Notes: generated by a model from the sequence alone, not told the origin. A stretch of 64,000 nucleotides of DNA from Alphaproteobacteria bacterium (GCA_965207785.1 OZ242305.1:342133-406132), one strand, 5' to 3'. Positions 4,020 to 20,208 are shown, counted from the stretch's first letter. Program-made: numbers and translations.

Positions 4020-4204
4020 GACCCTTGCCGTGAAGATGGCGCGATGATCAGGAAATCGGTCCCGGCGCCATGTGGCCTCTGAATCCGCGCCTCATCTGCA
4101 TCTCGATACAAGCGAGACAACGGTACGCCTGAAGGATGCGGAACATCCGTGCATGCCGCCGCCGCCGGAAGGTCCGCCCATTCGGTCATGATGCAGGCCA
4201 ACGT

Positions 4205-6076
4205 CTAGCGTTCCCTCAACCGCGACAGGCCGGAGGCGATCCAGCCGGGAGTCCGTTCGCCCGGAAGTGATGGTTCGTCTCCGGCGGGGGCCAGCGTACG
4301 CAGACCGTCTTCGGTGGTTGATCCCAGGCGGGCGGGATTGGCGAGCCACCACACCAGGGGCACTCCGATCATCCAGAAGAATATCTGCCAAACCCAGAGG
4401 GAAGAAAGGCCGAGTGCAGCCGCCTCGTCCGCAAAGATCGGTTCGATGAAGAATGTGTTGCCCAGAATGGCGCCCGGGCCCAACGCGAAGAACGCCCAGA
4501 GCAGCACCAGCGACCATGTCGCGGTTCTTGAGGCCGGCCCGCCGAATGGCACGCGCCACGATGCCCGGAACTCGTTGTGCAGGCGATCGCGAACGTCTCG
4601 TCCGGTGCTGCGTCTGGTGAAGATGGAGACGAGCAGGACTGCGACGACGTTGCACATCAACCCCCAGGCAGCTGAATGGACGGTCAGGGGCCACCGGCCC
4701 CAGGGCAGGTCAAGAAACAGACCCTCGAAAAGCACGAGTCCGGGCGGCTCGGTGAAGATGACGACGAGCCCGCCCAGGACGATGCCGGTCAGAATGGCAC
4801 CGCGGCTGATCCATGGCACGAAGGTGAAACCCAGGATAGCGGGCGTCAGCTGAACCGAGAGAGGCAGCACCGCACTGGCGAGAATTGCTGACGTGAGGGG
4901 TGAAAAGGCGGCCAGAATTGCCACCGAAATGAAGGCGCCGGCCAGCGCAACCCGTGTCGCGAAACGCTCGGCGCGACGGCTGAGTCCCGGAAAGATGTCG
5001 CGAAACAGCAGGTCCCTTGCGAGCAACAGGGTTCCTCCGGTGACGAAGAAGGCTACGGTCAGCTGGGCGATGACGACAAGGCCGAGGACCGCTCCTGCAC
5101 CGGCAAGGACATTCACCCTCGCCAGCATGGTAGCGAGGGTGGCCACGTCGCCGTCCATTCGTGCGGCAAGGAAGGGGACTGCAAGCACCAGGACGGCCCC
5201 GACAAGGCCGGCCATGAGCCAGACGTGCGTCACCGCGAAGGCGCGGCCCGGTCCGGTGGTCATGCCGAGATGGAGGAACATTGGCGACAGCACGACGCCA
5301 ACCAGGGTGAGAGCTGCCGACACGACGCCGACAGTCGTGAAAATGCCGCCGGCCGGCACGTCCTTGCCGATACCTGCTGCATACTGGACGACACCTGGAA
5401 TGCGGTCGGCGAGAATGTCGTCGGCTACCGGGATCGACGTCCGCAGAAATCCCCCGTCCGCGAGTACGCCTTCGCCAAAGAAGACCGCAGTGGCAAGGGC
5501 GACGACGACAATGGCGGACTGCATCCCGGCCACCAGGACGACGGCGCGCCAGCCACCGATGACAGCGGGCAGGAAGAGCATGAAGGCCAGAGTCCAGATG
5601 GCGACCCGGTGCGGTATGGCGCCATCCGTTGCAATGTCGATGATGGCGCCGGCATCGGCCAGTACATGGGCAGCGAAGGGAAGGGCGAAGAGGGCTGTCA
5701 GTCCGGCGACGAAAAGGCGCAGGGCGGTGCTTTGGTAGTACCAACCCATCATCAGACCAGGACTGGCAAGTCCGGCGATCCGTGCTCCCAGCCACAGTCG
5801 CTTGAGGACCAGGACTGCGGTCAGGGCAGCGATGATGATGCCGACGCCAACGTGGTTGGCCTGCAGTCCGTAGCGGTCCACGAGGGCGAGATGGTCCGTC
5901 AGGCCGAATCCGGCGAGCACCACGCCGGACGCTGTGAACGCGAAGGCCCAACCGGGGATGTCGCTGCCACCGTCGATGAATGTTCCGGGTGCTCGGCCGA
6001 TACGCGCCACCATGGCCGCGATGTAGACACCGTAGAGCGCCAGCACGGCGACGGCTGTGGCCATGATTGTCGTCAC
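4205..6076 (-). CDS. sodium:solute symporter (SSS) family-like transporter
   Basis: 623 aa, about 13-14 TM. N-terminal FIDGGSDIPGW and the GGWRAVVLVAGMQ segment resemble SSS signatures. GTG start overlaps the upstream stop (GTGA); alternative ATG at 6064. Confidence 0.6.
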   Translation of the reverse strand: MTTIMATAVAVLALYGVYIAAMVARIGRAPGTFIDGGSDIPGWAFAFTASGVVLAGFGLTDHLALVDRYGLQANHVGVGIIIAALTAVLVLKRLWLGARIAGLASPGLMMGWYYQSTALRLFVAGLTALFALPFAAHVLADAGAIIDIATDGAIPHRVAIWTLAFMLFLPAVIGGWRAVVLVAGMQSAIVVVALATAVFFGEGVLADGGFLRTSIPVADDILADRIPGVVQYAAGIGKDVPAGGIFTTVGVVSAALTLVGVVLSPMFLHLGMTTGPGRAFAVTHVWLMAGLVGAVLVLAVPFLAARMDGDVATLATMLARVNVLAGAGAVLGLVVIAQLTVAFFVTGGTLLLARDLLFRDIFPGLSRRAERFATRVALAGAFISVAILAAFSPLTSAILASAVLPLSVQLTPAILGFTFVPWISRGAILTGIVLGGLVVIFTEPPGLVLFEGLFLDLPWGRWPLTVHSAAWGLMCNVVAVLLVSIFTRRSTGRDVRDRLHNEFRASWRVPFGGPASRTATWSLVLLWAFFALGPGAILGNTFFIEPIFADEAAALGLSSLWVWQIFFWMIGVPLVWWLANPARLGSTTEDGLRTLAPAGDEPSLPGERTPGWIASGLSRLRER

Positions 6077-6534
6077 AAGCGTGCCCGGTTTCGGCGTACC
6101 CGCGACGATGGCCTCGGATTGTTGTCGCGGATGATGTCAAACTTCCGGAACGCAGCGCGCGTGCCGTGGCGTGTCACCATGGTGAGGGCGACTGCGACGA
6201 CGAGGCTCGTCATCCCGGTTGCGATGGTGAGAAAGAAGGATTCATAGAATCCATCTATCAGGACCATCGCGCCAATGAAGGCGTTCAGCGCAGCGAGAAA
6301 CAGGACCATGCCGGCACCTGTTTCTCGCGCCGTGAATCCGGTTCCCAGGGCGGCATTGATGATGATGTGGCCGGCGAACCCGGCGAGGATGACGACAAAG
6401 CCCCCGGCAACCCACCAGGATCCGTCAGCGGCAAACCCGTGATTGAACAACATCGCTGCGACAAGGCCGACGGGCAGCCAGAGGGCCATGACCAGGGCGT
6501 GGCGATCAAGCCGCGCCTGTTGTCCGGACGCCAC
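6073..6534 (-). CDS. small 4-TM membrane protein with a basic C-terminal tail, function unknown
   Basis: 153-aa ORF with four hydrophobic segments, a GTG start 11 nt after the flotillin stop, and a stop overlapping the symporter start. No family recognised. Confidence 0.45.
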   Translation of the reverse strand: MASGQQARLDRHALVMALWLPVGLVAAMLFNHGFAADGSWWVAGGFVVILAGFAGHIIINAALGTGFTARETGAGMVLFLAALNAFIGAMVLIDGFYESFFLTIATGMTSLVVAVALTMVTRHGTRAAFRKFDIIRDNNPRPSSRVRRNRARL

Positions 6535-6545
6535 CGCTCAGAACC

Positions 6546-8744
6546 TCAGGCGTCGTCGCTGTCCGTCTTCTTCGGCGCGGTCTCGGGAAAGTTGCGGAAC
6601 GACATGCCGCCGGCCGATCCCAGGTTCTTGAGCGGAAGCCCGATCTCCTCCATCAGGCCATCGACGAACGCCACCTGCGTCCGGTACTTCATGGCCGAGT
6701 TCACCACCCGGTCCGAAACGTTGTCGGATCCGCCTCCTCCCGGCCCGCCTACGCCTTCCGATGGGCTGTTCAGCCCCGGCAGGCCGTCGACCTGGAGAAT
6801 CTTGATGGACTCGATGTTCTCCATTGGCTTCACGGATTCCCGAATCACTTCAGGCAGCGTCCTGACGAGGTGCTCGTAAATGGCGCTGCGGCGACTCTCG
6901 TCAGTGCGCAAGTTCTCGGCCTCGTTGAGTTTCCTGTGACCTTCAGCGTCCGTCTGGTAGCGCACTTCGGCAGCTTTCGATTCGGCGATTTCGGCCTCGG
7001 CTCTCTTTTCCATGGCGACCTTGTGGCCTTCGGCGTTCCGCACGAGGCGCATGTACTCGCGCTCGACCTTGGCCTCGGCGTCGATGATCTCGATGCGCTT
7101 GTTGCGTGTCGCGATCTCTTCGGCCCGGACAGAGTCGATCCGGGCTTCCGTGGCGGCAAGGTTGCGCCGGGCTTCGGCCTCATTGGTGAGTGCGACGGCT
7201 TCCTCGATCTGCTTGTTGATCACGGCGATCAGGCGTTCCTTGTCGGCTATCTCGATCTGCATGTCCTGTTCGATCTCGAAACGATCGATGAACTTGCGCG
7301 CAGCAATGCGCATTTCCTCGAGCGCCCGGTTGGCAGAAATCGCCGCGTCCTCGGTATTGCGGAGGCTCCCGGTTTCCGCGAGCTTGATGGCCTGCTGCTT
7401 GGCAATGTCGCGTTCCGACACCTCCTGATCGGTCTCGAGGCGCGCCAATTCCACGGCAAGGCGCTTGGAGATCGCCGCGCGCTCCTGTTCGCTCGCGGCC
7501 TGTTCCGATGAGACCCGGACCTCCTTCTCGGCCTCGACCCCGAGGAGTTCGATTTCCCGCTGCTTGGCGATGCGTTCCGCCTCGACTGCCCGTTCCCTGT
7601 CAAGGCGGGCCTTCTCGATCTCTGAGTGGGACTGCGAGTCGAAGACCTCGATTTCCATTTCGGACCTGATGGATGCCTCGCGGACCTGGCGTTCACGCTC
7701 GATCCGTTCAGCCTCGATTTGCTGGCGGCTCTGGATGCGTTCGGTTTCAAGCGTCGAATGGGTTTCGATGTCGATCAGTTCGGTGTCGCGCTGCTTCTCG
7801 ATCTCCTGGGTGCGGATGTGGTTCTGCGAGCGGATGCGTTCGAGTTCAATGGCCTGTTCCTTGGTGATGCGCAGGAGCTCGCTCTCCTTGTCGGCCTTGA
7901 GTCGGGCCTCCACCACGGCGATCTCCGAACTGGAGCGTTCCGCTGCAACCTCGGCGAGCTGCATTGCCTTGCGGTTCTCGATGTCCCGGGCCTGGTCGAT
8001 CCGCGCGATTTCCAGGTCGCGGTCGATCTCGAGTGCGCGCTGCTCCGCCTCGAAGTCCTTCATCTTGATGTCGATGCGCGCCTCGTTTTCGATCCTGTTG
8101 CGTAGCTTGCGTCGATCCTCGACCTGTTCGGTCAATTGTGTGAGGCCTTCGGCGTCAAAGGCATTGGAAGGGTTGAAGATCGCGATGTCCGACTGGTTGA
8201 GGGATGTCAGCGATGCGTTCTCAAGTTCGAGTCCATTGCTCTCGAGGGTGCCTGCAGCAAGTTCCGCGGCCTGGCGGATGTACCCGCCACGATCCTGGTG
8301 GATCTCCTCCATGGTCATGCGGGCGGCGACGGCGGCCATGGCATCGACAAAGCGGCCGTGGATGACTTCCTTGACGGCCATCGCGTCCTGGGTCTTGGCG
8401 CCAAGCGTGCGCGCGGCGGTGGATACCCCCTCCCGTGTCGCGATGACGCGGACAAAAAACTCGGCGACCAGATCGATCCGCATCTTGTTGTTCGTGATCA
8501 GCGACTGTTCGCCGGTGCGCCGGACCTCGACAGGGATGGCGTTCATGTTGACGACGGTGATGTCATGGACGATGGGGATGACGAGCGCGCCGCCCCCCAT
8601 CACGACTTTCTCGCCACCGGCGCCCGTGCGCACGAAGCTCTGGTCCTTCGACGAATGGCGATAGAGCCAGTGCAGCAGATAAACCCCGACGGCGATCAGG
8701 ATCGTCAGCAGGATGATGATTGCGATAGCGTCAGCACCGTTCAT
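6546..8744 (-). CDS. flotillin-like SPFH/band-7 protein (YqiK-like) with a very long coiled coil
   Basis: N-terminal TM helix, SPFH core (FVRTGAGGEKVV...IPVEV...RIDLVAEFFVRV), then about 450 aa of E/R/A/I-rich heptad-like sequence with recurring ERI units. Confidence 0.85.
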   Translation of the reverse strand: MNGADAIAIIILLTILIAVGVYLLHWLYRHSSKDQSFVRTGAGGEKVVMGGGALVIPIVHDITVVNMNAIPVEVRRTGEQSLITNNKMRIDLVAEFFVRVIATREGVSTAARTLGAKTQDAMAVKEVIHGRFVDAMAAVAARMTMEEIHQDRGGYIRQAAELAAGTLESNGLELENASLTSLNQSDIAIFNPSNAFDAEGLTQLTEQVEDRRKLRNRIENEARIDIKMKDFEAEQRALEIDRDLEIARIDQARDIENRKAMQLAEVAAERSSSEIAVVEARLKADKESELLRITKEQAIELERIRSQNHIRTQEIEKQRDTELIDIETHSTLETERIQSRQQIEAERIERERQVREASIRSEMEIEVFDSQSHSEIEKARLDRERAVEAERIAKQREIELLGVEAEKEVRVSSEQAASEQERAAISKRLAVELARLETDQEVSERDIAKQQAIKLAETGSLRNTEDAAISANRALEEMRIAARKFIDRFEIEQDMQIEIADKERLIAVINKQIEEAVALTNEAEARRNLAATEARIDSVRAEEIATRNKRIEIIDAEAKVEREYMRLVRNAEGHKVAMEKRAEAEIAESKAAEVRYQTDAEGHRKLNEAENLRTDESRRSAIYEHLVRTLPEVIRESVKPMENIESIKILQVDGLPGLNSPSEGVGGPGGGGSDNVSDRVVNSAMKYRTQVAFVDGLMEEIGLPLKNLGSAGGMSFRNFPETAPKKTDSDDA

Positions 8745-8797
8745 TGTCGTGTCCTCGTCTCGAGGCTCGCGCCTCTTGCGGTTGGATGGATATCACC

Positions 8798-9487
8798 TCA
8801 GAACCGTTCCTGACCTGCGACCGCCAGGATTATGAGCGACGGCGTGATGAGGTTGATCAGGTCAAAGAGCGTGTAGAGTGCTACGATACTCGGCGATTGT
8901 CCCGTTCCGATCACCACATCGACAAAGTGCAGAATGGGATAGATCGCCCAGCCGACAGTCATGATCAGGCGGATCCAGAAGTAACCCAGGCGCACCGCCC
9001 GGCTCTGCCGACGGACGACGTCGGCCAGGGGGCCGAAGTAGAACTCTCCGAGGATGTAGAGCCAGAAGCCGATGGAGAGCAGTACACCCAGAGTCGGATT
9101 GAAGAAGCCTGCGTCGCCCAGGTAGCGCGCGAACACCATCAGCAGCGCGGCGGCTGCCGTGCGCCAGAAAATTCCCACCGGGGGTTTCGCCAAGGCGCGC
9201 ACGAAGAAGTACATGGCCGCGACCTGCAACGGGTGCACCGTGAACCAGGCGGCAAAGCGGATGCCCCCGCTTGACGCTCCTCCTTGCAGCCACAGGGACG
9301 CCGCGCCGGCATAGTGCAGCGCCGACGCCAGGGTGGCGACGGCTACCATTGCCACCGGAATCCGCCACTTTTCGGAGGACCAGCTCAGGCCCGCGAGACA
9401 CAGGACTGCGGTAGAGAAGGTGGCCAGTGCGGCGATGACGAAGCTGCTGGCGACCACGTGCTGCGAGGTGTAGAGAACTCCGAACAT
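8798..9487 (-). CDS. proteorhodopsin-family (Bac_rhodopsin) homolog lacking the Schiff-base lysine
   Basis: 229 aa, 7 TM. By-eye alignment to green proteorhodopsin: EKW..HY (helix B), RFAAWFTVHPL vs RYIDWLLTVPLL (helix C), YLGDAG vs YMGEAG (helix D), GWAIYP identical (helix F), LYTLFDLINLI vs IYNLADFVNKI (helix G). The lysine position is Leu. Confidence 0.8.
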   Translation of the reverse strand: MFGVLYTSQHVVASSFVIAALATFSTAVLCLAGLSWSSEKWRIPVAMVAVATLASALHYAGAASLWLQGGASSGGIRFAAWFTVHPLQVAAMYFFVRALAKPPVGIFWRTAAAALLMVFARYLGDAGFFNPTLGVLLSIGFWLYILGEFYFGPLADVVRRQSRAVRLGYFWIRLIMTVGWAIYPILHFVDVVIGTGQSPSIVALYTLFDLINLITPSLIILAVAGQERF

Positions 9488-9497
9488 GTCCTTCTCC

Positions 9498-10901: not shown

Positions 10902-12265
10902 GGCGACATTCCTCCGAACACGGTCATGTCACCCTGGACCATCACCAGCGCGAACAGCGCGATCACGAGAACCGCAAGCAGGACGTAGGTGAAGAGACCG
11001 AGCTTTTGCCGGCGGGCCTCGGCGCTCATCAGCCGCACCGCCAGCGTCACTGCGGCCGCGGCGACGACGATGCCAAACGCGATTCTCTGGAGAAGCGAAA
11101 ACCGCGGCACTGTCGCCTCGGCACCCGCGGGCGCGACCAGGAGGTAGCGTGTCGCAAGGTCGGCGTTTTCCGCTGCGGCGGGGCCTTCCGCCGGCAGGTA
11201 GGAGCCGGAGGTTGCCACATGCAGCAGGATGCCGGCGACGACGGTGCCGAGAACCAGAAACGCGCTCCAAGGCGATATGAACGCGATGTGCCGGGCAACG
11301 ATCGGGACCAGGAGAGTCAACAGCAGGGACAGAACCAGGATGATCCCGTAGCTCATCTGCGTGACGAATGCCTGGATGGCACCGAAGTTGAGCGTCGCGA
11401 GGACGTAACCGATCAGGTAGAGGTTCAGTGCACCGAGAAGGGCGCCCGTGACACCGCCTCGGCCGCCGGCCAGGCTGACACCGCCGAGCACGAGCGCAGT
11501 GACAGCCGTCAGGGTCATGGTCGTACCCTGAGTCGGATCCCCTGAGGCGATGAGAGCGGTGTAACAAATGGCGCCCAGTCCGACGAACAGACCGGCGATG
11601 ACGTGGGCGCCGATGCGCACGACGTAGATGCGCACCCCGCTGGTCCAGGCCGCCCGCTCGTCGTACCCCATCATCCTCAGGTTGCTGTAGAACCGCGTCA
11701 GTATGAAGAGCAGCCAGCCGACGGTGGCGATCACGACGATCAGAAGGACCGGCGAGAAGATCGTGGTGCCACGGCCCCAGCTTGCCATCCATTCCGGTGC
11801 CAGACCGCCGGGGCGTGGGAGGATGACCAGGTTGATGCCCGATAGCGCCAGGAATCCGGACAGCGCGACGATAATCGGCTGAACCCGGACCCAGATCACC
11901 ACGAGAGCAAAGAACAGCTGATAGAGAACGCCCAGCCCGAGTGCCACCAGGAAGACGCCGAACGGGCCGGTGACCAGATCCAGCATGTTCAGCTTGACGA
12001 TCGTCACGTTGATGAAGGCAAGTAACGGGCCGACGGCAAGGTCGATGGTGCCGCGGCCGGCGATGGCAAGTGACATCAGCGCGTAGGTCGCCAGAGTCAG
12101 CGGAGCGGCGACGATGATGGCGCTGCCGATTCCCGACATCGAGACGAGATGCGGACCGCGGATGGCAGCTGTCGACAGCAGCACCATGATGAGCGCGATC
12201 GGCACCAGGAGATAGGTGTTCGTCGTCGAGGTGCGTTCTGACATCCCGGTCAGGCCCGCAGCCAT
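10898..12265 (-). CDS. sugar-type ABC transporter permease (BPD_transp_2) with a C-terminal 3-TM extension
   Basis: 455 aa. Canonical core ends near residue 325 and is followed by about 130 extra residues with three hydrophobic helices. Confidence 0.8.
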   Translation of the reverse strand: MAAGLTGMSERTSTTNTYLLVPIALIMVLLSTAAIRGPHLVSMSGIGSAIIVAAPLTLATYALMSLAIAGRGTIDLAVGPLLAFINVTIVKLNMLDLVTGPFGVFLVALGLGVLYQLFFALVVIWVRVQPIIVALSGFLALSGINLVILPRPGGLAPEWMASWGRGTTIFSPVLLIVVIATVGWLLFILTRFYSNLRMMGYDERAAWTSGVRIYVVRIGAHVIAGLFVGLGAICYTALIASGDPTQGTTMTLTAVTALVLGGVSLAGGRGGVTGALLGALNLYLIGYVLATLNFGAIQAFVTQMSYGIILVLSLLLTLLVPIVARHIAFISPWSAFLVLGTVVAGILLHVATSGSYLPAEGPAAAENADLATRYLLVAPAGAEATVPRFSLLQRIAFGIVVAAAAVTLAVRLMSAEARRQKLGLFTYVLLAVLVIALFALVMVQGDMTVFGGMSP

Positions 12266-12292
12266 GATTCAAGCGCCGGGCGCGGCCATTGC

Positions 12293-13231
12293 TCAAAGTT
12301 CGATCACGCGGCGCGGATCCGCTTTCGGGGACTGCTGCGGCCTGGCAGCCGGTCCGGACAGCGAACGGCCTTCCCCGCGTCGCTGCGGATCGTTCTGCAG
12401 GATCTTCTTGAGGACCGGCGCCACGACATTCTTGAACTTTTCCGGATCTTCGGAGGTCGGGAAGTGCCCGCCGGAAAAGATGATGCACTCGCAACCCTTG
12501 ACTTTCTCCGCCGTGCGCTCGGTCATTTCGGGCGTACAGGCGAAGTCGTAGTCGCCGGTCAGGAAGTAGAGGGGCAGTCGCCCCGAAATCCTGTGCACCT
12601 TGTCGCGGTAGTCGCTGTCGACGGAGTAGTAGTAGAGGTCCCCCTTGAAGATGCCCGGTCCGCCCTGTGCATAGTACCACCAGGTTTCCCAGCGGTACTG
12701 GTCCGGACTCTCCGGCGACATCAGGCCGAACACCGATGTCGCCACGGCCTCGCCTCCATGTACGTGCGGGTGATGCAGTGGGTCGATCCACCATCCCGGC
12801 GAGTGGTCGCAGGCTTCCAGTGCGATCAGCGCCGAAAACTCGTTCTCGTAGTTGAGGGCGAGTTCAAGGCAGATGTTGCCGCCCATCGACTGGCCCATGA
12901 TGACCGGCTTGTCCAGATCGAGGGCGCGGCAGAAGGCGACAATGAACTCTGCGTAGAACCGCGACGTCAGCTTGTATTCATCCTCCATCAGGTAGAAGTC
13001 CTCGGGAGGAATCGATTTTCCATGCCAGGGCAGGTCGAATGCGATCATGCGGAAATTCGACGAGAAGTCCGGCTCGCAAAGCTGATGGCGATACTGACGG
13101 CAGTCGGTGCCGGCGGTGTGCAGGCAGACCATGGGAATGCCCTCGCCCGTTTCCTCGTAGTATGTCCTGTAGGTCTTTCCCTCGCAGGTCACGTAAACGT
13201 AGCGTCCGATGATGGGATCATGCGGGTTCAT
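12293..13231 (-). CDS. alpha/beta-fold hydrolase
   Basis: Nucleophile elbow GQSMGG, LHTAGTD oxyanion region, C-terminal GGHFP histidine. Start at MNPHDP (ATG 13231), preceded by GGAGAG. Confidence 0.8.
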   Translation of the reverse strand: MNPHDPIIGRYVYVTCEGKTYRTYYEETGEGIPMVCLHTAGTDCRQYRHQLCEPDFSSNFRMIAFDLPWHGKSIPPEDFYLMEDEYKLTSRFYAEFIVAFCRALDLDKPVIMGQSMGGNICLELALNYENEFSALIALEACDHSPGWWIDPLHHPHVHGGEAVATSVFGLMSPESPDQYRWETWWYYAQGGPGIFKGDLYYYSVDSDYRDKVHRISGRLPLYFLTGDYDFACTPEMTERTAEKVKGCECIIFSGGHFPTSEDPEKFKNVVAPVLKKILQNDPQRRGEGRSLSGPAARPQQSPKADPRRVIEL

Positions 13232-13245
13232 CGTTGTTCTCTCCG

Positions 13246-13650
13246 TCAGATTTCGCGCATCAGTGCGAGCATGCGGGTCAGTGCCCTCACGTTTTGCCAG
13301 AACGACAACTGATTGCCGTCGATCACCAGCTGCTTGTGCAGCGGATGCGCCATGGCCCAGATGTCGTTGAACATGGGCGGGGGCACGGGTTGGCTGAACT
13401 TTTCCCATGCGCTCGAGGGCGCGCGCAGGGCAAACTCGAAACCGAAGTCGTTCGGAGTCAGGCCCTCCGAAATACGGACGATCTTGCCCTTCTGGACCTC
13501 GAACAGGAATTCGGTGTCGTCAAAGGCGATCAGGAACCGGTGATTGAAGAACCTGCCGATGGTCGGCAGGATCCTGTCTTCATTGACGCGACGCGCCCAG
13601 CGCTCGACCCATTCAAGGTCGAAACTGGCTCTGCGGCCATATCTGCTCAT
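13246..13650 (-). CDS. small SCP2-like (sterol/lipid carrier fold) protein, tentative
   Basis: 134 aa from MSRYGRR (ATG 13650, GGAGGA upstream). The pattern FLIAFDDTEFLFEVQKGKIV...FEFALRAPSSAW...LVIDGNQLSFWQNVRAL resembles SCP2/UbiT-like domains. Family assignment is by eye only. Confidence 0.45.
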   Translation of the reverse strand: MSRYGRRASFDLEWVERWARRVNEDRILPTIGRFFNHRFLIAFDDTEFLFEVQKGKIVRISEGLTPNDFGFEFALRAPSSAWEKFSQPVPPPMFNDIWAMAHPLHKQLVIDGNQLSFWQNVRALTRMLALMREI

Positions 13651-13687
13651 GAGGTCCTCCTGTCGGTTCAACAGTAACGTGCATGCG

Positions 13688-15853
13688 TCATGCGGCGGGT
13701 AACGGAGTGCGGGCGGGTCCGTAGACCGCGGTGAACGAGGCCTGGTCGATCGCGACCGGCAGGACCGCCGCACCGAAAGCGGCGAGGTCCGCGTCCGCCG
13801 CAACGCCAATTCTGGGCACCTTGAGTGCGTATAGCGTGAAGACATAGCGATGCTGGCTGTCTGGAGGCCACGGACCGCCCCAGCCGCGGCCGAAGCCTGG
13901 TATGCCGAAGGTCACGAAGTCGGAATTGAGTTCCAGGGCGGCGTCCGGAAGCGTCTGGCCGCTGGCTCCTTCCGGCAGTTCGCGAACGTCTCCTGGAATG
14001 TTGCAGACCAGCCAGTGAGCGAAACTGCGTGGAAAGTTGAAGGCTTCCGGCACGTCCGGGTCGGTGACCGACAGCGCGAAACTTCGCGTGCCGTCTGGTA
14101 CGCCGGACCAGGAGAGGGCCGGCGATTTGGTGCTTGATTCACAGAACCGGTCCGGCACCACCGAGCCCTGGGGAATGTCCGGGGCGCCGAAGAGAAAGCC
14201 TGACTGGTTCATCTTGTCCTCCAAGACGGTTGAAGACACCAATGGCACCGGTCGGCCGCCTGGCCGCCCATCCGACGGAAACGGCGCTGTTGCCGGTTGT
14301 CGCCCGAGTCGGTCGGCGTCATGACCGCCTGCCGACAGGACCGCGCCGCTGCGCCGGCCGAACATGGCGTTGAGAATATCGTGACCGTCGAGCGGCGGCG
14401 AGAACTCCGCTGAGATGGCGCCGTTGCGGAACACGTGCACCCGGGTGCAGAGATCGAGGAATTCCTCGATTTCGGACGACAGAAACACGACCGCGTTGCC
14501 GCGCGCCGCGAAGGCCCTGAGATTGTGATAGAGGTCGCGTTTGGCACCGACGTCGATGCCGCGGGCGGGATCGTTCAGGACCAGGACCGAAGGCTTTTCC
14601 GCAAAGGCGCGGGCGATCAGGACCTTTTGCTGATTGCCGCCCGAGAGGGATGTGACAAGATCGTCAGATGAACCCATCCGCACATCGAGTCGCCCGGACT
14701 CCCACTCGAAGACGGGGCGGAGTTTTGTCCGGTTGATCAGGTTGAGCCAGCCGCCGGTCCGATACTCCCGGTAGACCGGAAGCAAGAGGTTCTCGAAGAT
14801 GCTGAGATTGGCGAAGATTCCTTCCTTCGCGCGGTCGCCGGAGACATAGCTGATGCCGTTCTCCCGAGCCGAGCGGAGATCGTCGACCGGGACTGCCGTC
14901 TTGTTGCGGACGATGGCGATGCGGCCCTCCACCATCGCCTGGACTCCCGCGATGGCGCGGACGAAGTCAGCGTGTCCGTGCCCGTCGAGTCCTGTGATGC
15001 CGACGATCTCGCCGGGATGAATTGTGAAGTCGAAAGAACCGGCGCCGGCCCACACCCGCGCTCCGAGAACGCGCAGGAGAGGATGATCCGACATGCGGGA
15101 GACCGGATCCTGAGATGCGCACTCCCCGTGTCGGCCCTTGCCGGCGATCATGTCCACGATCCGGGCTTCGCTGATGTCCTGACTTGCCAGGGTGCCGATC
15201 GAACGCCCGTCGCGAAGCACGGTGGCGCTGTCGGCAATGCGCACCAGTTCGGCGATGCGATGGGTGACGATCATGATTGTGCAACCCGCGGCCTTCATCC
15301 GGCGCATCTTGCTGAACAGCCGTTCCGTGGAGTCGAAGTCGAGGGCTGCCGACGATTCGTCGAGGATCAGGACCTTGGGGTCGGTCAAAATCGCGCGGGC
15401 GATGGTGACCCATTGCTTGATCGACAAGGGGAGTTCGACGACGGCAAGGTCAAGGTCGAGTTCGAATCCGAGAAGCTCCATCATCAGTTCGCCGGCTGCG
15501 CGGTAACGCTCCTCCCTGGCAACCGGAGTGCCGAGCAGACTGTCGGCGCCAAGATAGAGGTTGTCGAGAACCGAGCACTCGTCGGCGACCAGAACTTCCT
15601 GAAAGACGTTTGAAATGCCCAGTTCCCGGGCTTCGTAGGGAGAGCTTGCGGACTTGCCGAGAATCGAGACGTGGCCGCTGTCGGGGATCAGCACCCCGGA
15701 GATCACCTTCGCAAGCGTGCTCTTGCCGGATCCGTTGCCGCCAATGATCGCGTGAATCTCGCCCGCCGACGCGCGCAGCGACACACCGTCGAGGGCAACC
15801 GTCGGGCCGAAGGCCTTGCTGACGTCGGAAATCTCGACGGTGGCAACGGCCAT
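13688..15853 (-). CDS. tandem-NBD sugar ABC ATPase (RbsA/MglA-like) fused in frame to a C-terminal PEBP/YbhB-YbcL domain
   Basis: Walker A GGNGSGKST, LSGGNQQK signature, and a second degenerate NBD. About 50 aa of low-complexity linker follow, then a 174-aa PEBP-like domain (TDPDVPE...HWLVCNIP...GPWPPDSQHRYVFTLYAL). Confidence 0.8.
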   Translation of the reverse strand: MAVATVEISDVSKAFGPTVALDGVSLRASAGEIHAIIGGNGSGKSTLAKVISGVLIPDSGHVSILGKSASSPYEARELGISNVFQEVLVADECSVLDNLYLGADSLLGTPVAREERYRAAGELMMELLGFELDLDLAVVELPLSIKQWVTIARAILTDPKVLILDESSAALDFDSTERLFSKMRRMKAAGCTIMIVTHRIAELVRIADSATVLRDGRSIGTLASQDISEARIVDMIAGKGRHGECASQDPVSRMSDHPLLRVLGARVWAGAGSFDFTIHPGEIVGITGLDGHGHADFVRAIAGVQAMVEGRIAIVRNKTAVPVDDLRSARENGISYVSGDRAKEGIFANLSIFENLLLPVYREYRTGGWLNLINRTKLRPVFEWESGRLDVRMGSSDDLVTSLSGGNQQKVLIARAFAEKPSVLVLNDPARGIDVGAKRDLYHNLRAFAARGNAVVFLSSEIEEFLDLCTRVHVFRNGAISAEFSPPLDGHDILNAMFGRRSGAVLSAGGHDADRLGRQPATAPFPSDGRPGGRPVPLVSSTVLEDKMNQSGFLFGAPDIPQGSVVPDRFCESSTKSPALSWSGVPDGTRSFALSVTDPDVPEAFNFPRSFAHWLVCNIPGDVRELPEGASGQTLPDAALELNSDFVTFGIPGFGRGWGGPWPPDSQHRYVFTLYALKVPRIGVAADADLAAFGAAVLPVAIDQASFTAVYGPARTPLPAA

Positions 15854-15883
15854 GTCAGATGTTCCGGCAGGCCCGCAAGGCCG

Positions 15884-15921
15884 GGCTCGCCACTGCCCGG
15901 CTTGCAGGGCAGTGGCGAGCC
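15884..15921 (-). terminator. perfect 15-bp stem-loop between the SBP and ATPase genes (attenuator or mRNA stabiliser)
   Basis: GGCTCGCCACTGCCC (15884-15898) pairs with GGGCAGTGGCGAGCC (15907-15921), 8-nt loop, no clear U tract. Confidence 0.45.
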
Positions 15922-15956
15922 ATTACCCGTTCCTTTCGGGCAACGAGGGCCAAACG

Positions 15957-17153
15957 CTATTGTGCGGCCGGATGCGAGGCCGGGTCATACATCTCGGGAT
16001 CGGCCGGACGCAGGAAGAAGTTGTCCAGATACTCCTTGCCCGCCCAGGCCTCGACGCCGACATGGTACCAGTCCGCCGAGTTTTCATCGCAGTCCTCGGG
16101 GATGGCCGCGAGCATCTGATCCCTGTCCATCGAGAAGGGCTTGGCAAGGATCGACTCAACCTTGGGGCCCTGTCCCTGGAGTGTGCGCATCATGATGTTC
16201 CAGGACATCTCGAAATCGTCGCCGGGAGGCCATGCATGGATGGCGCCCGACACGTAGTCCGGGTTGTTGCGCCAGTAGCAAAGCGCGCCGAGCTCGCTGC
16301 CGATGGTGACGGGCACCATGTCTCGGCCCGACTGCTTCAGGGCGCGCAGCGCGCCGAGTTCAGATGCCGACTGAATGACGATGCCATCCAGTTGGCCGGG
16401 ATTGGTCGCCATCCACTTCTGGATTTCGGCCTGGGCCACCTGGTCTGTCCACATGCCGGCGATCTGGCCGACGATCTCGATGTCCGGGTAATCGGCGAGC
16501 GCTGCCTCGATGCCCACATTCTGGCTGTCTGAGGCCGAGGTGCCCGGGATTCCCTCCACGTTCAGGATGTTGCCCGCGCCGCCGAGTTCGTTGGCCATCC
16601 ATTCGCCCATCATGCGTCCACCGACGACGAAGTTGGCCGACGAGTTCACCGAATAGGGGCTCGTCAGGTAACCGACCGCCGAGAACGTGGGTACGCCGCG
16701 TTCGTAGGCATAAGCCACGGTCTGGTTGAGCGCCGTGGGATTCGAGCAGCAGATGATCAGCGCATCGACGCCCTGGTCGACGAGCTGGCGCATTTGCTGG
16801 ATCTGGACCGAATCGTTGAGGTTCGACTGCGTGATGATGACCTCCGAGATAAGGCCGAGCTCGGTCCATTTCGGAATGATCTCGTTCTGCAACCGGTTCA
16901 TGACTGCGGCGCGCCAGGTGTTGCCGGCATAGCTGGAGGCATAACCGATCTTCCATGGCGGCGGGTTGGCGGCGATGAAGTCGCGATAGGGGCTGTCGCC
17001 CACTGGCTGGACCGGATCCAAGTACGCCGGATCGTAGAGGTCGTTGCGGATGTCTTCCGGCAGTTCTTCGACCCCGGCCGACACCGGCGCTGTGATCATG
17101 GCCGACACGCAAACGGCGAGTGCCGGCAAGAAGGCAATTGCGCAGCGTTTCAT
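15957..17153 (-). CDS. periplasmic sugar-binding protein of an ABC transporter (Peripla_BP-like)
   Basis: Signal peptide MKRCAIAFLPALAVCVSAMITAPVSAG. ATG 17153 is preceded by GGGAGGA. Type I periplasmic binding-fold pattern. Confidence 0.8.
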   Translation of the reverse strand: MKRCAIAFLPALAVCVSAMITAPVSAGVEELPEDIRNDLYDPAYLDPVQPVGDSPYRDFIAANPPPWKIGYASSYAGNTWRAAVMNRLQNEIIPKWTELGLISEVIITQSNLNDSVQIQQMRQLVDQGVDALIICCSNPTALNQTVAYAYERGVPTFSAVGYLTSPYSVNSSANFVVGGRMMGEWMANELGGAGNILNVEGIPGTSASDSQNVGIEAALADYPDIEIVGQIAGMWTDQVAQAEIQKWMATNPGQLDGIVIQSASELGALRALKQSGRDMVPVTIGSELGALCYWRNNPDYVSGAIHAWPPGDDFEMSWNIMMRTLQGQGPKVESILAKPFSMDRDQMLAAIPEDCDENSADWYHVGVEAWAGKEYLDNFFLRPADPEMYDPASHPAAQ

Positions 17154-17505
17154 GGGTCCTCCCTTCACTGCATTGTTTCAAGTGACCGACATGGTCGTTG
17201 ACGCTTCAGCGCAACCTCGCCGCCGGTCCGGGCGGCAAATCTACACCATGTCCACAATTCAGGAACAGCCCAAAGTGACACCCCCGCGCGCAGTTTGGGC
17301 CGGGCGAATCGCCGCATCACCGCGTGGCCTCGACAACGCGCCAGGCACCGGGTCATGAGCTTCGGCGTTCCATCCGTCGACGTCGGTATCCGGGCATGGT
17401 GCCGAGTGTTCCTTCAAGCCGGCGGACAACGCCGCGATGCCGAGACTTCCCTTCGGGTCGGGGTGGCGGCAAAGTCGTTGCTGACAAGTCAGTCCGGAGA
17501 TCTTC

Positions 17506-18045: not shown

Positions 18046-18159
18046 CCGGGGAGGGACTCTCCTTGCCATTGGACCTTTCGCCGTTGCGAGTCGCCGGTTC
18101 CCCGGCAACAGCAGAACGCACTGTGGTCACAGGCCAATGAGGGTCTGCAGGAGGATGAC

Positions 18160-20192: not shown

Positions 20193-20208
20193 CCGGGGGA
20201 GAGGATTC

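What the first reader, a model, noticed from the sequence alone, without database searches (positions are those of the whole stretch)
4205..17153. Ten-gene minus-strand string joining an atypical ABC importer, lipid-binding/hydrolase domains, lysine-less rhodopsin, flotillin and a symporter
Spacers between consecutive genes, in nt: SBP-ATPase 103 (with hairpin), ATPase-SCP2-like 37, SCP2-like-hydrolase 14, hydrolase-permease 27, permease-permease -4, permease-rhodopsin 10 (just GGAGAAGG), rhodopsin-flotillin 53, flotillin-4TM 11, 4TM-symporter -4. I see no internal promoter-sized gap and no regulator gene. Several components share a lipid or membrane-organisation theme. These are a PEBP domain (phosphatidylethanolamine-binding fold), an SCP2-like carrier fold, an alpha/beta hydrolase (possible esterase/lipase), flotillin (microdomain scaffold), and a retinal-incompetent rhodopsin scaffold that could hold an isoprenoid non-covalently. 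My inference is a single module that imports or remodels a lipid or isoprenoid-like compound and organises a membrane microdomain. I do not know of this combination being described. A PLP aminotransferase/dehydratase pair follows after a 185-nt gap and may or may not belong to it.
Basis: inference. Interest (0 to 1): 0.75.

Follow-up and report, generated by a model that had tools for sequence, protein, structure and literature searches.

The report
Flotillin-associated rhodopsin transporter operon
The ten genes are a real, tightly conserved operon, but it is a compact version of the already published flotillin-associated rhodopsin (FAR) gene cluster. It pairs a retinal-less "blind" rhodopsin and flotillin with two nutrient uptake systems, and its function is still unknown.

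Summary
Ten minus-strand genes lie at 4205-17153 with spacers of 103, 37, 14, 27, -4, 10, 53, 11 and -4 nt. The same order and spacing recur in about 40-50 alphaproteobacterial genomes.

The combination is not undescribed. Nine of the ten proteins are homologues of the FAR gene cluster of Haro-Moreno et al. 2023. The rhodopsin's best solved relative is the retinal-free PsFAR (PDB 9r21).

The window carries the bare core:
- a CUT2 sugar-type ABC importer, whose ATPase has a C-terminal PEBP domain
- an SCP2-fold protein plus a serine hydrolase
- a lysine-less FArhodopsin (Lys to Leu, Asp to Ala, Glu120 to Arg)
- flotillin
- a 4-TM protein plus a symporter-like protein

The aminotransferase/dehydratase pair does not belong to the cluster.

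Most likely mechanism (inferred): a light-independent FAR-flotillin scaffold organises two uptake systems for a small polar compound. Lipid or isoprenoid import is not supported.

Not mentioned in the papers I read:
- The cluster occurs in cultured soil and rhizosphere bacteria (Mesorhizobium, Shinella, Paracoccus, Martelella, Hoeflea, Pararhizobium), including a conjugative plasmid.
- Sister versions are wrapped in blc/att-like gamma-butyrolactone catabolic genes.

The parts
17154..17248 (-). Upstream leader and promoter region of the operon, and the upstream edge of the conserved block
   Evidence: Nucleotide similarity to L001 starts at window 17248, and to L003 at 17197. The GGGAGGA ribosome-binding site and a GACATGGTGTAGATTT stretch are conserved in L001-L003. 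No sigma-70 consensus was found.
15957..17153 (-). Periplasmic substrate-binding protein (CUT2 sugar type, 398 aa, Sec signal peptide)
   Evidence: Pfam Peripla_BP_4, 1.3e-35. 49% identical to the SAR11 FAR-cluster SBP, E = 1.6e-149. Best PDB relatives are 4rs3, 5hko and 4rsm, all CUT2 sugar-binding proteins. The start codon is fixed by the alignment.
15884..15921 (-). 15-bp GC-rich hairpin in the SBP-ATPase spacer, with no U-tract
   Evidence: The SBP-ATPase spacer is the longest internal spacer and is strongly structured in 37 related loci. A role as an mRNA stabiliser or attenuator that sets SBP excess is inferred.
13688..15853 (-). ABC ATPase with two nucleotide-binding domains and a C-terminal PEBP domain (721 aa)
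   Evidence: Pfam ABC_tran x2 plus PBP. NCBIfam's best hits are AlsA, YtfR, AraG, XylG and RbsA type, all below equivalog cut-offs. 51% identical to the SAR11 FAR-cluster ATPase. The fusion length of 690-747 aa is conserved in most loci.
13721..14155 (-). PEBP (YbhB/YbcL-type) domain, residues 567-711 of the ATPase
   Evidence: PF01161, 111.9 bits against a cut-off of 24. The DPDVP and HRY pocket motifs are visible in the translation. The domain is absent in L031, L042, L044 and L047 and from the marine ATPase annotation.
13246..13650 (-). SCP2-fold small cytoplasmic protein (134 aa)
   Evidence: No Pfam or NCBIfam hit. 31% identical to the SAR11 FAR-cluster 'SCP2 superfamily' protein, E = 7e-24. 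The AF2 model matches the SCP2 structures 1wfr and 2cx7 and UbiJ-SCP2.
12293..13231 (-). Alpha/beta-fold serine hydrolase (312 aa; GQSMG nucleophile elbow, and a C-terminal GH motif taken as the catalytic His by sequence inspection)
   Evidence: Pfam Abhydrolase_1. 44% identical to the SAR11 FAR-cluster hydrolase, E = 2e-85. Weak PDB relatives are esterases, meta-cleavage-product (C-C bond) hydrolases, zearalenone lactonase and epoxide hydrolases.
10898..12265 (-). ABC permease 1 (455 aa) with a C-terminal membrane extension
   Evidence: BPD_transp_2 covers residues 60-312 only. 54% identical to the SAR11 774-aa permease. Extra hydrophobic segments follow residue 325.
9498..10901 (-). ABC permease 2 (467 aa) with an N-terminal membrane extension; overlaps permease 1 by 4 nt
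   Evidence: BPD_transp_2 covers residues 181-451. 53% identical to the SAR11 466-aa permease..
8798..9487 (-). Lysine-less flotillin-associated rhodopsin (FArhodopsin, 229 aa)
   Evidence: The best PDB match is 9r21 'flotillin-associated rhodopsin', 113 bits, against about 70 bits for proteorhodopsins. Residue mapping to PsFAR: K213 to Leu213, D79 to Ala80, H84 kept as His85, E120 to Arg121, D209 and R76 kept. Only 10 nt after permease 2.
6546..8744 (-). Flotillin (732 aa: N-terminal membrane hairpin, SPFH domain, long coiled coil, Flot C-terminal domain)
   Evidence: Pfam Flot 108 bits plus Band_7. 42% identical to the SAR11 FAR-cluster flotillin, E = 5e-92.
6073..6534 (-). Conserved 4-TM small membrane protein (153 aa), translationally coupled to the next gene by a GTGA overlap
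   Evidence: No family hit. Four hydrophobic segments. Present before the symporter in about 44 loci with a median overlap of -4. Also present as a 141-aa 'hypothetical protein' in the plasmid-type clusters.
4205..6076 (-). Polytopic membrane protein (623 aa, 13 or more hydrophobic segments), probable SSF-like symporter; last gene and downstream edge of the block
   Evidence: No Pfam or PDB hit. hhalign gives probability 100%, E = 1e-41, to the SAR11 FAR-cluster 'sodium/solute symporter'. Similarity to L001 ends at its stop codon, 4205.

Best explanation
Shown: the ten genes are a compact, single-strand version of the published flotillin-associated rhodopsin (FAR) gene cluster. They sit in an unclassified alphaproteobacterium, and the 13-kb block has different flanks in different genomes.

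The block encodes:
1. A CUT2 (sugar-type) ABC importer: SBP, a double-NBD ATPase carrying a C-terminal PEBP domain, and two permeases with extra membrane helices.
2. A cytoplasmic SCP2-fold protein plus a serine alpha/beta hydrolase.
3. A rhodopsin-fold protein that lacks the Schiff-base lysine and the counter-ion Asp, and has bulky residues in the former retinal pocket.
4. A flotillin.
5. A 4-TM protein plus a large symporter-like permease.

Inferred mechanism: the FArhodopsin no longer senses or uses light. As a retinal-free oligomer (PsFAR is a pentamer), it is the integral-membrane partner of flotillin. Together they build a membrane platform in which the co-translated ABC importer and the secondary transporter are assembled or stabilised.

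The hairpin after the SBP gene gives excess SBP. The PEBP domain is a cytoplasmic anion- or metabolite-binding regulatory module on the ATPase, in the manner of the C-terminal regulatory domains of MalK, MetN and ModC.

The cargo is a small polar oxygenated organic compound, not a lipid. The most likely class is lactone, gamma-hydroxy acid or polyol. The hydrolase, helped by the SCP2-fold protein, would carry out the first cytoplasmic step. Lineage-specific neighbouring genes complete the catabolism. These are blc/att-like lactonase, Fe-ADH and SSADH in some lineages, and LysR, acyl-CoA dehydrogenase, PrpD, hydratase and CoA-transferase in others. The window has none of them.
For: Identity as a FAR cluster:
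- Nine of ten proteins match the SAR11 AG-390-L03 FAR cluster from Table S2 of PMC10308929. E-values run from 1e-24 to 1e-149.
- The rhodopsin's best solved relative is PsFAR 9r21, at 113 bits against about 70 for proteorhodopsins.
- The rhodopsin-flotillin tandem is present.

Operon and module:
- The order is identical in about 45 loci from Rhodobacterales, Hyphomicrobiales (Mesorhizobium, Bradyrhizobium), Puniceispirillales and others.
- Spacers are conserved and tight, including 10 nt between permease and rhodopsin and two -4 overlaps.
- There are no internal promoter-like or terminator-like sites in the spacers.
- Nucleotide similarity to L001 and L003 begins and ends at the block edges.

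Light-independence:
- Leu replaces Lys in 50 of 53 clade members. Asp79 becomes Ala, Gly, Ser or Thr. Arg sits at the Glu120 position in 52 of 53.
- PsFAR binds no retinal because His84 and Glu120 fill the pocket.
- Hosts include cultured Mesorhizobium, Paracoccus haematequi and Shinella.
- The 4.6-Mb Shinella replicon has no second rhodopsin detectable with a proteorhodopsin query.

Cargo class:
- The SBP, ATPase and permeases are carbohydrate-type.
- Plasmid-borne sister clusters place the same core between IclR, AttM lactonase, Fe-ADH and SSADH. These are the enzymes of the Agrobacterium blcABC pathway from GBL to GHB to SSA to succinate.
- The SAR11 and HIMB59 clusters also carry AttM-type lactonases, 66% identical to the Martelella AttM.
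- The hydrolase has weak (28-43 bit) esterase, lactonase, C-C bond hydrolase and epoxide hydrolase relatives and an apparent serine nucleophile motif.
Against: - No experiment links FAR, flotillin and the transporters physically. Kovalev et al. found no obvious flotillin-binding adaptation in PsFAR.
- In SAR11 the ABC genes lie on the opposite strand, kilobases from the FAR-flotillin pair. Adjacency is therefore not universal.
- The window itself has no lactonase, Fe-ADH, SSADH or CoA-pathway genes next to the cluster. The substrate inference is borrowed from relatives whose accessory genes differ among themselves.
- The SBP matches sugar and polyol binders only weakly and partially: 89 bits, residues 105-283.
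- 'Symporter' is not supported by any curated model.
- The regulatory role of PEBP is pure analogy.
Confidence: 0.6

Rival explanations
1. One reading: the module imports or remodels a lipid or isoprenoid-like compound. The SBP and ABC importer would take it up. The SCP2-like and PEBP domains would carry it. The hydrolase would modify it. The lysine-less rhodopsin would hold an isoprenoid non-covalently, and flotillin would build a raft around it.
For: - The SCP2 fold is supported. UbiJ-SCP2, which binds isoprenoid quinone intermediates, is among the fold matches.
- A PEBP domain is present.
- The hydrolase has esterase-like relatives.
- Flotillins are raft scaffolds, and the FAR paper also notes a lipid-transport flavour for the SCP2 gene.
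Against: - The transporter is a CUT2 carbohydrate-type system with a type I sugar-class SBP. It is not an Mla, Lol, Lpt or other lipid-handling ABC type.
- Bacterial PEBP proteins are not established phosphatidylethanolamine binders (own knowledge). The domain is also missing in part of the family.
- PsFAR has only fragmented water-filled cavities. The window protein keeps His85 and adds Arg121.
- Accessory genes in relatives point to small water-soluble acids and lactones.
Confidence: 0.1
2. The hypothesis of the FAR paper: FArhodopsin assembles with a bona fide proton-pumping proteorhodopsin encoded elsewhere in the genome, inside flotillin rafts. It would tune or boost light harvesting in dim light, and the neighbouring transport genes would simply be raft clients.
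For: - Marine carriers always have a second, functional proteorhodopsin, and FAR genes peak in the lower photic zone.
- FAR and flotillin are co-transcribed in metatranscriptomes.
- PsFAR forms proteorhodopsin-like pentamers.
Against: - In this clade the Lys and the counter-ion Asp are lost.
- Carriers include soil and nodule Mesorhizobium, Paracoccus haematequi and Shinella.
- No second rhodopsin lies in the 64-kb window, nor on the 4.6-Mb Shinella replicon.
- The rhodopsin gene sits 10 nt behind an ABC permease gene in about 46 genomes.
- Whole genomes of carriers were not scanned, so a partner rhodopsin is not excluded.
Confidence: 0.08
3. The FAR is a ligand- or stress-sensing membrane receptor, or a light-independent channel or scramblase. 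It would regulate the adjacent transporters directly, with flotillin as a generic chaperone, rather than act as a passive scaffold.
For: - Arg76, Asp209 and a polar His or Gln at position 84, plus the invariant Arg121, are conserved in the clade. This suggests a maintained internal polar network.
- Light-independent scramblase activity has been reported for a proteorhodopsin (PMC10730872, listed).
- The FAR paper raises a sensor role for retinal-less rhodopsins.
Against: - No transducer, kinase or HAMP-type partner lies in the ten-gene core.
- No ligand cavity was reported in PsFAR.
- There is no experimental hint.
Confidence: 0.15

Closest known systems
FAR (flotillin-associated rhodopsin) gene cluster of Pelagibacterales, HIMB59 and Pseudothioglobus (Haro-Moreno et al. 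2023, mSystems, PMC10308929)
   Same: It shares the rhodopsin-flotillin tandem, the SCP2-like protein, the alpha/beta hydrolase, the sugar-type SBP, the double-NBD ATPase, two long permeases and a symporter. All are sequence homologues at 26-54% identity. The paper also reports lysine-less variants, including Leu, in freshwater metagenomes.
   Different: - The window version has 10 genes on one strand in 13 kb. The marine one has about 24 genes on two strands in about 26 kb.
- Here the rhodopsin follows the ABC permease by 10 nt.
- The ATPase carries a PEBP domain.
- A 4-TM gene precedes the symporter.
- The N,N-dimethylformamidase-like gene and its small partners are absent, as are the carboxylase, PxpA, Fe-ADH, lactonase and aldolase genes.
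- The host is a 63% GC, non-streamlined alphaproteobacterium.
PsFAR, the cryo-EM structure of a retinal-free FArhodopsin (PDB 9r21 and 9r23; Kovalev et al. 2025, bioRxiv 10.1101/2025.04.29.651185)
   Same: It is the best solved relative, E = 1.7e-31 over residues 10-222. The pocket-blocking His84 is conserved as His85. Arg76 and Asp209 are also conserved.
   Different: PsFAR keeps Lys213 and Asp79 and has Glu120. The window protein has Leu213, Ala80 and Arg121. Oligomeric state and absence of retinal are not tested for the window protein.
Rh-noK, the lysine-less xanthorhodopsin-related rhodopsins (as summarised in PMC10308929)
   Same: Both are microbial rhodopsin folds without the Schiff-base lysine.
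   Different: Rh-noK genes are xanthorhodopsin-related, sit in tandem with a functional rhodopsin gene, and regain pumping when Lys is restored. The window protein is FAR-type and sits between an ABC permease and flotillin. It also lacks the counter-ion Asp, and its pocket is blocked.
Agrobacterium blcR-blcABC (attJ-attKLM) gamma-butyrolactone catabolic operon (PMC3907764)
   Same: In sister FAR clusters on plasmids of Martelella, Hoeflea and Pararhizobium, the same transport and scaffold core is flanked by an IclR regulator, an AttM lactonase, an Fe-ADH and (in Martelella) an SSADH. That is the full blc enzyme set. SAR11 and HIMB59 clusters carry AttM-type lactonases.
   Different: The window cluster has none of these genes. 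The classical blc operon has no ABC importer, rhodopsin or flotillin.
SPFH-partner systems (flotillin/YqiK with NfeD-type partners; HflK/C with FtsH) - own knowledge
   Same: An SPFH or flotillin gene is co-transcribed with a gene for an integral-membrane partner. The inferred logic is that the SPFH assembly encloses or organises a membrane client.
   Different: The partner here is a seven-helix rhodopsin-fold protein rather than NfeD or a protease. No NfeD domain is found in the cluster. The analogy is untested.
CUT2 monosaccharide ABC importers (Rbs, Als, Ytf, Xyl, Ara types), and ATPases with C-terminal regulatory domains (MalK, MetN, ModC; own knowledge)
   Same: It has the same subunit set and domain families.
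   Different: All NCBIfam equivalog scores are far below their cut-offs. The permeases are 455 and 467 aa with extra helices. The SBP is about 70-100 aa longer than the solved relatives. A PEBP domain on an ABC ATPase is not a described arrangement to my knowledge.

Membership tests
FArhodopsin clade of the proteorhodopsin family | Closer in sequence to FArhodopsins than to proton-pumping proteorhodopsins | tested here: met
   phmmer against the PDB gives 9r21 PsFAR 113 bits (1.7e-31), against 65-71 bits for proteorhodopsins. The window protein is 32% identical to the SAR11 FAR. No phylogenetic tree was built.
FArhodopsin clade of the proteorhodopsin family | The gene lies next to a flotillin gene on the same strand with a short spacer | tested here: met
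   The spacer is 53 nt in the window. The median is 48.5 nt across 52 loci. The flotillin is confirmed by the Pfam Flot and Band_7 models.
FArhodopsin clade of the proteorhodopsin family | The retinal pocket is blocked by an aromatic residue at the PsFAR His84 position and a bulky residue at or near Glu120 | tested here: met
   The window has His85 and Arg121. Across the clade, position 84 is His in 27 members and Gln in 21, and the Arg is present in 52 of 53. Gln is not aromatic, so the 'aromatic in all FARs' rule does not hold for the whole clade.
FArhodopsin clade of the proteorhodopsin family | No retinal binding, and a pentameric assembly | not testable with these tools
   This needs protein expression, spectroscopy and structure determination. 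The absence of Lys213 and Asp79 makes covalent retinal binding impossible in the usual way.
FAR gene cluster (Haro-Moreno et al. 2023) | Co-located homologues of the ABC importer (SBP, ATPase, two permeases) and the symporter, which are the genes marked 'All' in Table S2 | tested here: met
   BLASTP gives SBP 49%, ATPase 51%, permeases 53-54% and symporter 26% identity, with E from 1e-26 to 1e-149. hhalign for the symporter gives E = 1e-41.
FAR gene cluster (Haro-Moreno et al. 2023) | SCP2-superfamily protein and alpha/beta hydrolase (present in SAR11 and HIMB59) | tested here: met
   31% identity (7e-24) and 44% identity (2e-85) respectively.
FAR gene cluster (Haro-Moreno et al. 2023) | N,N-dimethylformamidase-like gene with two small partner genes (marked 'All' in the marine clusters) | tested here: not met
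   tblastn finds no match anywhere in the 64-kb window. These genes are therefore not part of the universal core.
FAR gene cluster (Haro-Moreno et al. 2023) | A bona fide proteorhodopsin is present elsewhere in the same genome | not testable with these tools
   Only 64 kb is available, and it holds no second rhodopsin. A related carrier, Shinella sp. PSBB067, has none on its 4.6-Mb replicon.
CUT2 carbohydrate ABC importer | Type I sugar-class SBP, a single ATPase with two NBDs, and BPD_transp_2 permeases | tested here: met
   No NCBIfam equivalog cut-off is reached, so the substrate is not assigned.
Flotillin (SPFH superfamily) | N-terminal membrane anchor, SPFH/Band_7 domain, coiled coil and a C-terminal Flot domain | tested here: met
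   Band_7 at residues 39-183 and Flot at 579-703, 108 bits. There is a hydrophobic N-terminus. It is not a FloT equivalog, scoring 46.9 bits against a cut-off of 700.
SCP2 sterol-carrier fold | The alpha/beta SCP2 fold with a hydrophobic tunnel | tested here: inconclusive
   No sequence-model hit. The AF2 model is of moderate confidence (pLDDT 64, pTM 0.59). Foldseek's best matches are SCP2 and UbiJ-SCP2 structures, E = 4e-5 to 5e-3, TM 0.5-0.6. The ligand tunnel was not examined.
PEBP (PF01161) | The PEBP domain with its DPDxP and HRY anion-pocket motifs | tested here: met
   111.9 bits against a cut-off of 24. 'TDPDVP' and 'QHRYVFTLYAL' are visible in the translation.
Sodium/solute symporter family (SSF) | A match to the SSF model or to solved SSF transporters | tested here: inconclusive
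   No Pfam, NCBIfam or PDB hit, even with a 16-sequence profile. The protein is homologous to the SAR11 protein that InterPro labels IPR001734.
blcABC/attKLM gamma-butyrolactone operon | AttM/BlcC lactonase, Fe-ADH (BlcB), SSADH (BlcA) and an IclR-type repressor | tested here: not met
   The window gives only generic 28-33% hits far from the cluster. The feature is met in sister clusters L054-L056 and partly in L031, L044 and L047.
Rh-noK | Xanthorhodopsin-related, in tandem with a functional rhodopsin gene | tested here: not met
   The neighbours are an ABC permease and flotillin. The best relatives are FAR and proteorhodopsins.

The most novel reading that the evidence does not exclude
The 'rhodopsin' has been exapted as a light-independent structural subunit of a flotillin platform. 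That platform belongs to a horizontally mobile, two-transporter uptake operon for lactone, gamma-hydroxy-acid or polyol type compounds. The substrate class is suggested by blc/att-like catabolism in sister clusters.

The operon is spread across soil, rhizosphere, plasmid-borne and aquatic Alphaproteobacteria. On this reading the marine FAR story about dim-light adaptation would be a side-effect of substrate ecology rather than of light.

The PEBP domain on the ATPase would be a new kind of trans-inhibition sensor. In the loci examined it is present exactly where the AttM lactonase is absent.
Probability: 0.3. Interest if true: 0.7.

Novelty: new member of a known kind. Interest (0 to 1): 0.5.

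Why it matters
FArhodopsins are widespread, and their function is unknown. The only proposals tie them to light harvesting in streamlined marine bacteria that cannot be manipulated genetically.

This window, and the roughly 55 related loci it led to, show three things:
- The conserved core is a 10-gene transport, hydrolase and scaffold operon.
- The core exists in cultured bacteria from soil, root-nodule, lichen-associated, oil-field and clinical sources. Most of these genera are not known as phototrophs, which is my own knowledge and was not checked here. One copy lies on a conjugative plasmid.
- Sister versions are embedded in a known lactone catabolic pathway.

That gives concrete organisms (Shinella, Mesorhizobium, Martelella, Pararhizobium) and concrete candidate substrates for testing what a retinal-less rhodopsin and a bacterial flotillin actually do.

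Tried and rejected
- Membership of the aminotransferase and PLP-enzyme pair (1759-4019) was rejected. They follow the cluster only in the closest syntenic relative, L002. Nucleotide similarity to L001 and L003 stops at the symporter stop codon.
- A riboswitch or known RNA in the leader or spacers was sought. Rfam at E <= 0.1 gave nothing.
- A sigma-70 promoter consensus was sought. None was found in 2500-18500. This is uninformative for an alphaproteobacterium.
- Terminal repeats or mobile-element ends at the block edges were sought. None was found.
- Direct assignment of the symporter to a solved transporter family failed, both with the single sequence and with a 16-sequence profile. The only trace was a 10-bit, E = 1.7 match to a 'histidine kinase' chain.
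- A 4TM-symporter gene fusion would have been Rosetta-stone evidence. L022 turned out to have a stop codon. L036 looks like a frameshifted tail. The idea is not used.
- A search for blc-like or CoA-pathway accessory genes in the window found them absent.
- Pfam and NCBIfam gave no hit for the SCP2-like, 4-TM and symporter proteins, even at E <= 10.
- The lipid or isoprenoid import reading is kept only as a low-probability rival.

Full report
**Observation**

The region 4205-17153 holds ten consecutive minus-strand ORFs. I recomputed every spacer from the sequence.

Three relatives share a GGGAGGA ribosome-binding site followed by ATG-AAA-CGC at that point.

The 103-nt SBP-ATPase spacer contains a perfect 15-bp hairpin at 15884-15921. 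The spacer folds at -58.6 kcal/mol, z = -4.9. It has no U-tract.

No sigma-70-like promoter was found. None of the terminator-like hits lies in an intergenic spacer.

Pfam confirms most of the domain calls:
- Peripla_BP_4
- two ABC_tran domains plus a C-terminal PEBP domain (112 bits)
- Abhydrolase_1
- two BPD_transp_2 permeases
- Bac_rhodopsin (32 bits)
- Band_7 plus Flot

The small 'SCP2-like' protein, the 4-TM protein and the 'symporter' have no Pfam or NCBIfam hit, even at E <= 10.

**What it is**

A literature search for lysine-less rhodopsins led directly to the flotillin-associated rhodopsins. Haro-Moreno et al. 2023 (PMC10308929) describe a 'FAR gene cluster' in SAR11, HIMB59 and Pseudothioglobus. 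In it a divergent proteorhodopsin paralogue always sits next to a flotillin gene. The cluster also holds an SCP2-superfamily protein, an alpha/beta hydrolase, a sugar-type ABC transporter and a sodium/solute symporter. Freshwater relatives lack the retinal lysine and carry Gln, Thr, Leu or Arg instead.

I took the SAR11 AG-390-L03 proteins from Table S2 of that paper and ran BLASTP against the window proteins. Nine of the ten are homologous:

| Window protein | Identity to SAR11 protein | E-value |
|---|---|---|
| Rhodopsin | 32% | 1e-34 |
| Flotillin | 42% | 5e-92 |
| SCP2-like | 31% | 7e-24 |
| Hydrolase | 44% | 2e-85 |
| Symporter | 26% | 1.5e-26 |
| Permease 1 | 54% | 6e-116 |
| Permease 2 | 53% | 1e-94 |
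| ATPase | 51% | 9e-125 |
| SBP | 49% | 1.6e-149 |

For the symporter, hhalign with a 16-sequence profile gives E = 1e-41.

The rhodopsin's best solved relative is the cryo-EM structure annotated 'flotillin-associated rhodopsin' (9r21). It scores 113 bits, against about 70 bits for proteorhodopsins. So the combination is already described. The window carries a compact member of that cluster family.

**The rhodopsin**

I aligned the window protein to PsFAR. The mapping is:
- K213 becomes Leu213.
- The counter-ion D79 becomes Ala80.
- T83 becomes Val.
- H84 is kept as His85.
- E120 becomes Arg121.
- R76 and D209 are kept.

Across 53 clade members the pattern is stable. Leu is present in 50. Arg121 is present in 52. 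Position 84 is His in 27 and Gln in 21.

Kovalev et al. showed that PsFAR binds no retinal, because His84 and Glu120 fill the pocket and leave only fragmented, water-filled cavities. By homology, the window protein has neither a Schiff-base site nor room for a polyene. That speaks against the idea that it holds an isoprenoid non-covalently. This point is inferred, not measured.

**Other parts**

- The SCP2-like call is supported by structure. An AF2 model from a 36-sequence alignment has pLDDT 64 and pTM 0.59. Its best PDB matches are Thermus SCP2 (1wfr, 2cx7; E about 5e-5, TM about 0.6), UbiJ-SCP2 and human SCP2.
- The hydrolase has a GQSMG nucleophile elbow and a C-terminal GH motif that I take to be the catalytic His. 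Its PDB relatives are weak (28-43 bits). They are esterases, meta-cleavage-product (C-C bond) hydrolases, zearalenone lactonase and epoxide hydrolases.
- The SBP, ATPase and permeases are CUT2 carbohydrate-type, but they reach no equivalog cut-off. The nearest solved SBPs are annotated as CUT2 sugar-binding proteins.
- The permeases are unusually long. The BPD_transp_2 domain covers only 60-312 of 455 residues in one and 181-451 of 467 in the other, and extra hydrophobic segments fill the rest.
- The PEBP domain keeps the DPDxP and HRY pocket motifs.

**Conservation and boundaries**

A scan of one genome per species found 52 loci that encode a relative of the rhodopsin. Nearly all are Alphaproteobacteria. 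Among them are:
- Rhodobacterales: Pseudotabrizicola, Cypionkella, Gemmobacter, Paracoccus haematequi
- about a dozen cultured Mesorhizobium species
- Bradyrhizobium and Hyphomicrobiales MAGs
- Puniceispirillales and Thermohalobaculum

In every locus that is long enough, the order is the same: SBP, ATPase(-PEBP), SCP2, hydrolase, permease, permease, rhodopsin, flotillin, 4TM, symporter. Median spacers are 95, 35.5, 19, 34.5, -4, 10, 48.5, 28 and -4 nt. The post-SBP spacer is structured throughout.

BLASTN against the closest relatives shows that similarity to L001 runs from window 17248 to 4205. The second coordinate is the symporter stop codon. Similarity to L003 runs from 17197 to 4192. Only L002 shares the flanks. 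The ten genes are therefore a discrete block.

The aminotransferase and PLP-dependent enzyme genes are not part of the block.

**What the relatives add**

1. In roughly 30 of the 52 loci the symporter gene is followed on the same strand by a LysR regulator gene. Where a LysR gene is present it begins roughly 5-190 nt after the end of the symporter match. After it come an acyl-CoA dehydrogenase, an MmgE/PrpD protein, a MaoC-like hydratase and/or a family III CoA-transferase. A few further loci carry the catabolic genes without a LysR match. The window, L001 and L002 have none of these genes. So 'no regulator' is a property of this lineage, not of the family.

2. A tblastn of plasmid records found a window-type cluster in the cultured Shinella sp. 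PSBB067. It also found a second cluster type on plasmids of Pararhizobium gei (conjugative, MOBQ), Hoeflea sp. IMCC20628 and Martelella spp.. RefSeq annotates the order in Martelella sp. AD-3 as follows:
   - IclR regulator (divergent)
   - hypothetical protein (the SCP2-like protein)
   - alpha/beta hydrolase
   - N-acyl homoserine lactonase AttM
   - SBP, ATPase and two permeases
   - 'bacteriorhodopsin' (Lys to Arg)
   - flotillin
   - two hypothetical proteins (the 4TM and symporter homologues)
   - iron-containing alcohol dehydrogenase
   - NAD-dependent succinate-semialdehyde dehydrogenase

   IclR, AttM, Fe-ADH and SSADH make up the enzyme and regulator set of the Agrobacterium blcR-blcABC (attJKLM) pathway. 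That pathway converts gamma-butyrolactone via gamma-hydroxybutyrate and succinic semialdehyde to succinate (PMC3907764).

3. The SAR11 cluster's lactonase is 66% identical to the Martelella AttM. Its Fe-ADH is 56% identical, its hydrolase 80% and its SCP2 protein 65%. HIMB59 also has an AttM gene.

4. AttM also occurs next to the PEBP-less loci L031, L044 and L047. It occurs in none of the roughly 40 PEBP-fused loci.

None of the FAR papers I read makes the blc connection or mentions isolates or soil organisms.

**How it most likely works**

Shown:
- It is a FAR-cluster member.
- It has an operon-like, conserved architecture.
- The rhodopsin lacks the residues needed to bind retinal covalently.
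- The transporter is of carbohydrate type.

Inferred:
- The FArhodopsin is a light-independent oligomeric membrane partner of flotillin.
- The pair forms a platform for the co-encoded ABC importer and the secondary transporter with its 4-TM subunit. The extra helices on the permeases are candidate contact sites.
- The hairpin raises the ratio of SBP to membrane components.
- The PEBP domain acts as a cytoplasmic regulatory domain on the ATPase.
- The cargo is a small polar compound of the lactone, hydroxy-acid or polyol class. The hydrolase and the SCP2-fold protein would carry out the first intracellular step.

Two findings argue against the published idea that FAR tunes a co-resident proton pump. 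Second, many carriers belong to genera not known as phototrophs (own knowledge). Whole genomes were not scanned, so that idea is not excluded. The lipid or isoprenoid import reading is the weakest, because every transport component is of sugar type.

**Novelty and score**

The finding is real and non-trivial, but its core is already in the literature. I rate it a new member of a known kind. Its variant features are the single-strand 10-gene core, the PEBP-fused ATPase, the 4-TM gene and the Leu/Ala/Arg substitutions.

Interest is moderate, 0.5. The function of FArhodopsins is an open question. This locus family supplies tractable hosts and a substrate hypothesis. Nothing here is mechanistically demonstrated, and the window itself lacks the informative accessory genes.

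Noticed in passing
L012:15273-19629, L017:15308-19916, L053:16450-21900 (absent from the window): In roughly 30 related loci the ten-gene string continues on the same strand with a LysR regulator. After it come an acyl-CoA dehydrogenase (73-91% identical among loci), an MmgE/PrpD protein, a MaoC-like hydratase and/or a family III CoA-transferase. A few further loci have the catabolic genes without a LysR match. The pathway is unidentified. The window, L001 and L002 lack it.
   Followed up: partly
L054 (Pararhizobium gei p2), L055 (Hoeflea sp. IMCC20628 plasmid), L056 (Martelella sp. AD-3 plasmid): This is a second FAR-cluster type on plasmids of cultured bacteria. The same core is flanked by IclR, AttM lactonase, Fe-ADH and (in Martelella) succinate-semialdehyde dehydrogenase. 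That is the Agrobacterium blc/att gamma-butyrolactone pathway set. The rhodopsin there has Arg at the lysine position.
   Followed up: partly
L031, L042, L044, L047 versus the other loci: ATPases without the PEBP domain (519-541 aa) occur in four loci. The three of these with enough flank all have an AttM-type lactonase nearby. None of the roughly 40 PEBP-fused loci does. This is a possible mutual exclusion and remains unexplained.
   Followed up: no
window 17154-17260; L001-L003 upstream regions: A conserved stretch, GACATGGTGTAGATTTnCCG, lies about 85-100 nt upstream of the SBP start codon. It is shared by the window and its three closest relatives. It may be a promoter or operator. No sigma-70 consensus is present.
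   Followed up: no
window 20086-21426 (+): A gene for an ArdC-type anti-restriction protein (ArdcN plus a zincin-like metallopeptidase domain) sits alone between a dipeptide-epimerase-like gene and putA. It is a possible remnant of a conjugative element about 3 kb from the cluster.
   Followed up: no
window 18160-20192 (+): This is a gene pair with overlapping ends: DUF1611 (P-loop) and an enolase-superfamily MR/MLE protein. A carboxymuconolactone-decarboxylase-family gene lies upstream at 17506-18045. None of the three is conserved next to the cluster in other genomes, except in L002.
   Followed up: no
window 28461-30245 (-): An Fe-dependent alcohol dehydrogenase has an N-terminal extension of about 215 residues with no Pfam hit. 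It is 33% identical to the FAR-cluster Fe-ADH of Martelella. It lies 11 kb from the cluster and is probably unrelated.
   Followed up: no
L036:12974-15301: The 4-TM gene and the symporter gene read as one ORF in this MAG. The junction looks like a frameshifted tail, so it is more likely an assembly error than a natural fusion.
   Followed up: partly
L047 and L049: These are two divergent loci from Rhodospirillales and an uncultured proteobacterium. They carry FARs that keep Asp79. L047 also keeps the lysine, and L049 has Gln. In L047 the SCP2, hydrolase and AttM genes are divergently oriented upstream. These loci are possible intermediates between the marine and the lysine-less types.
   Followed up: no
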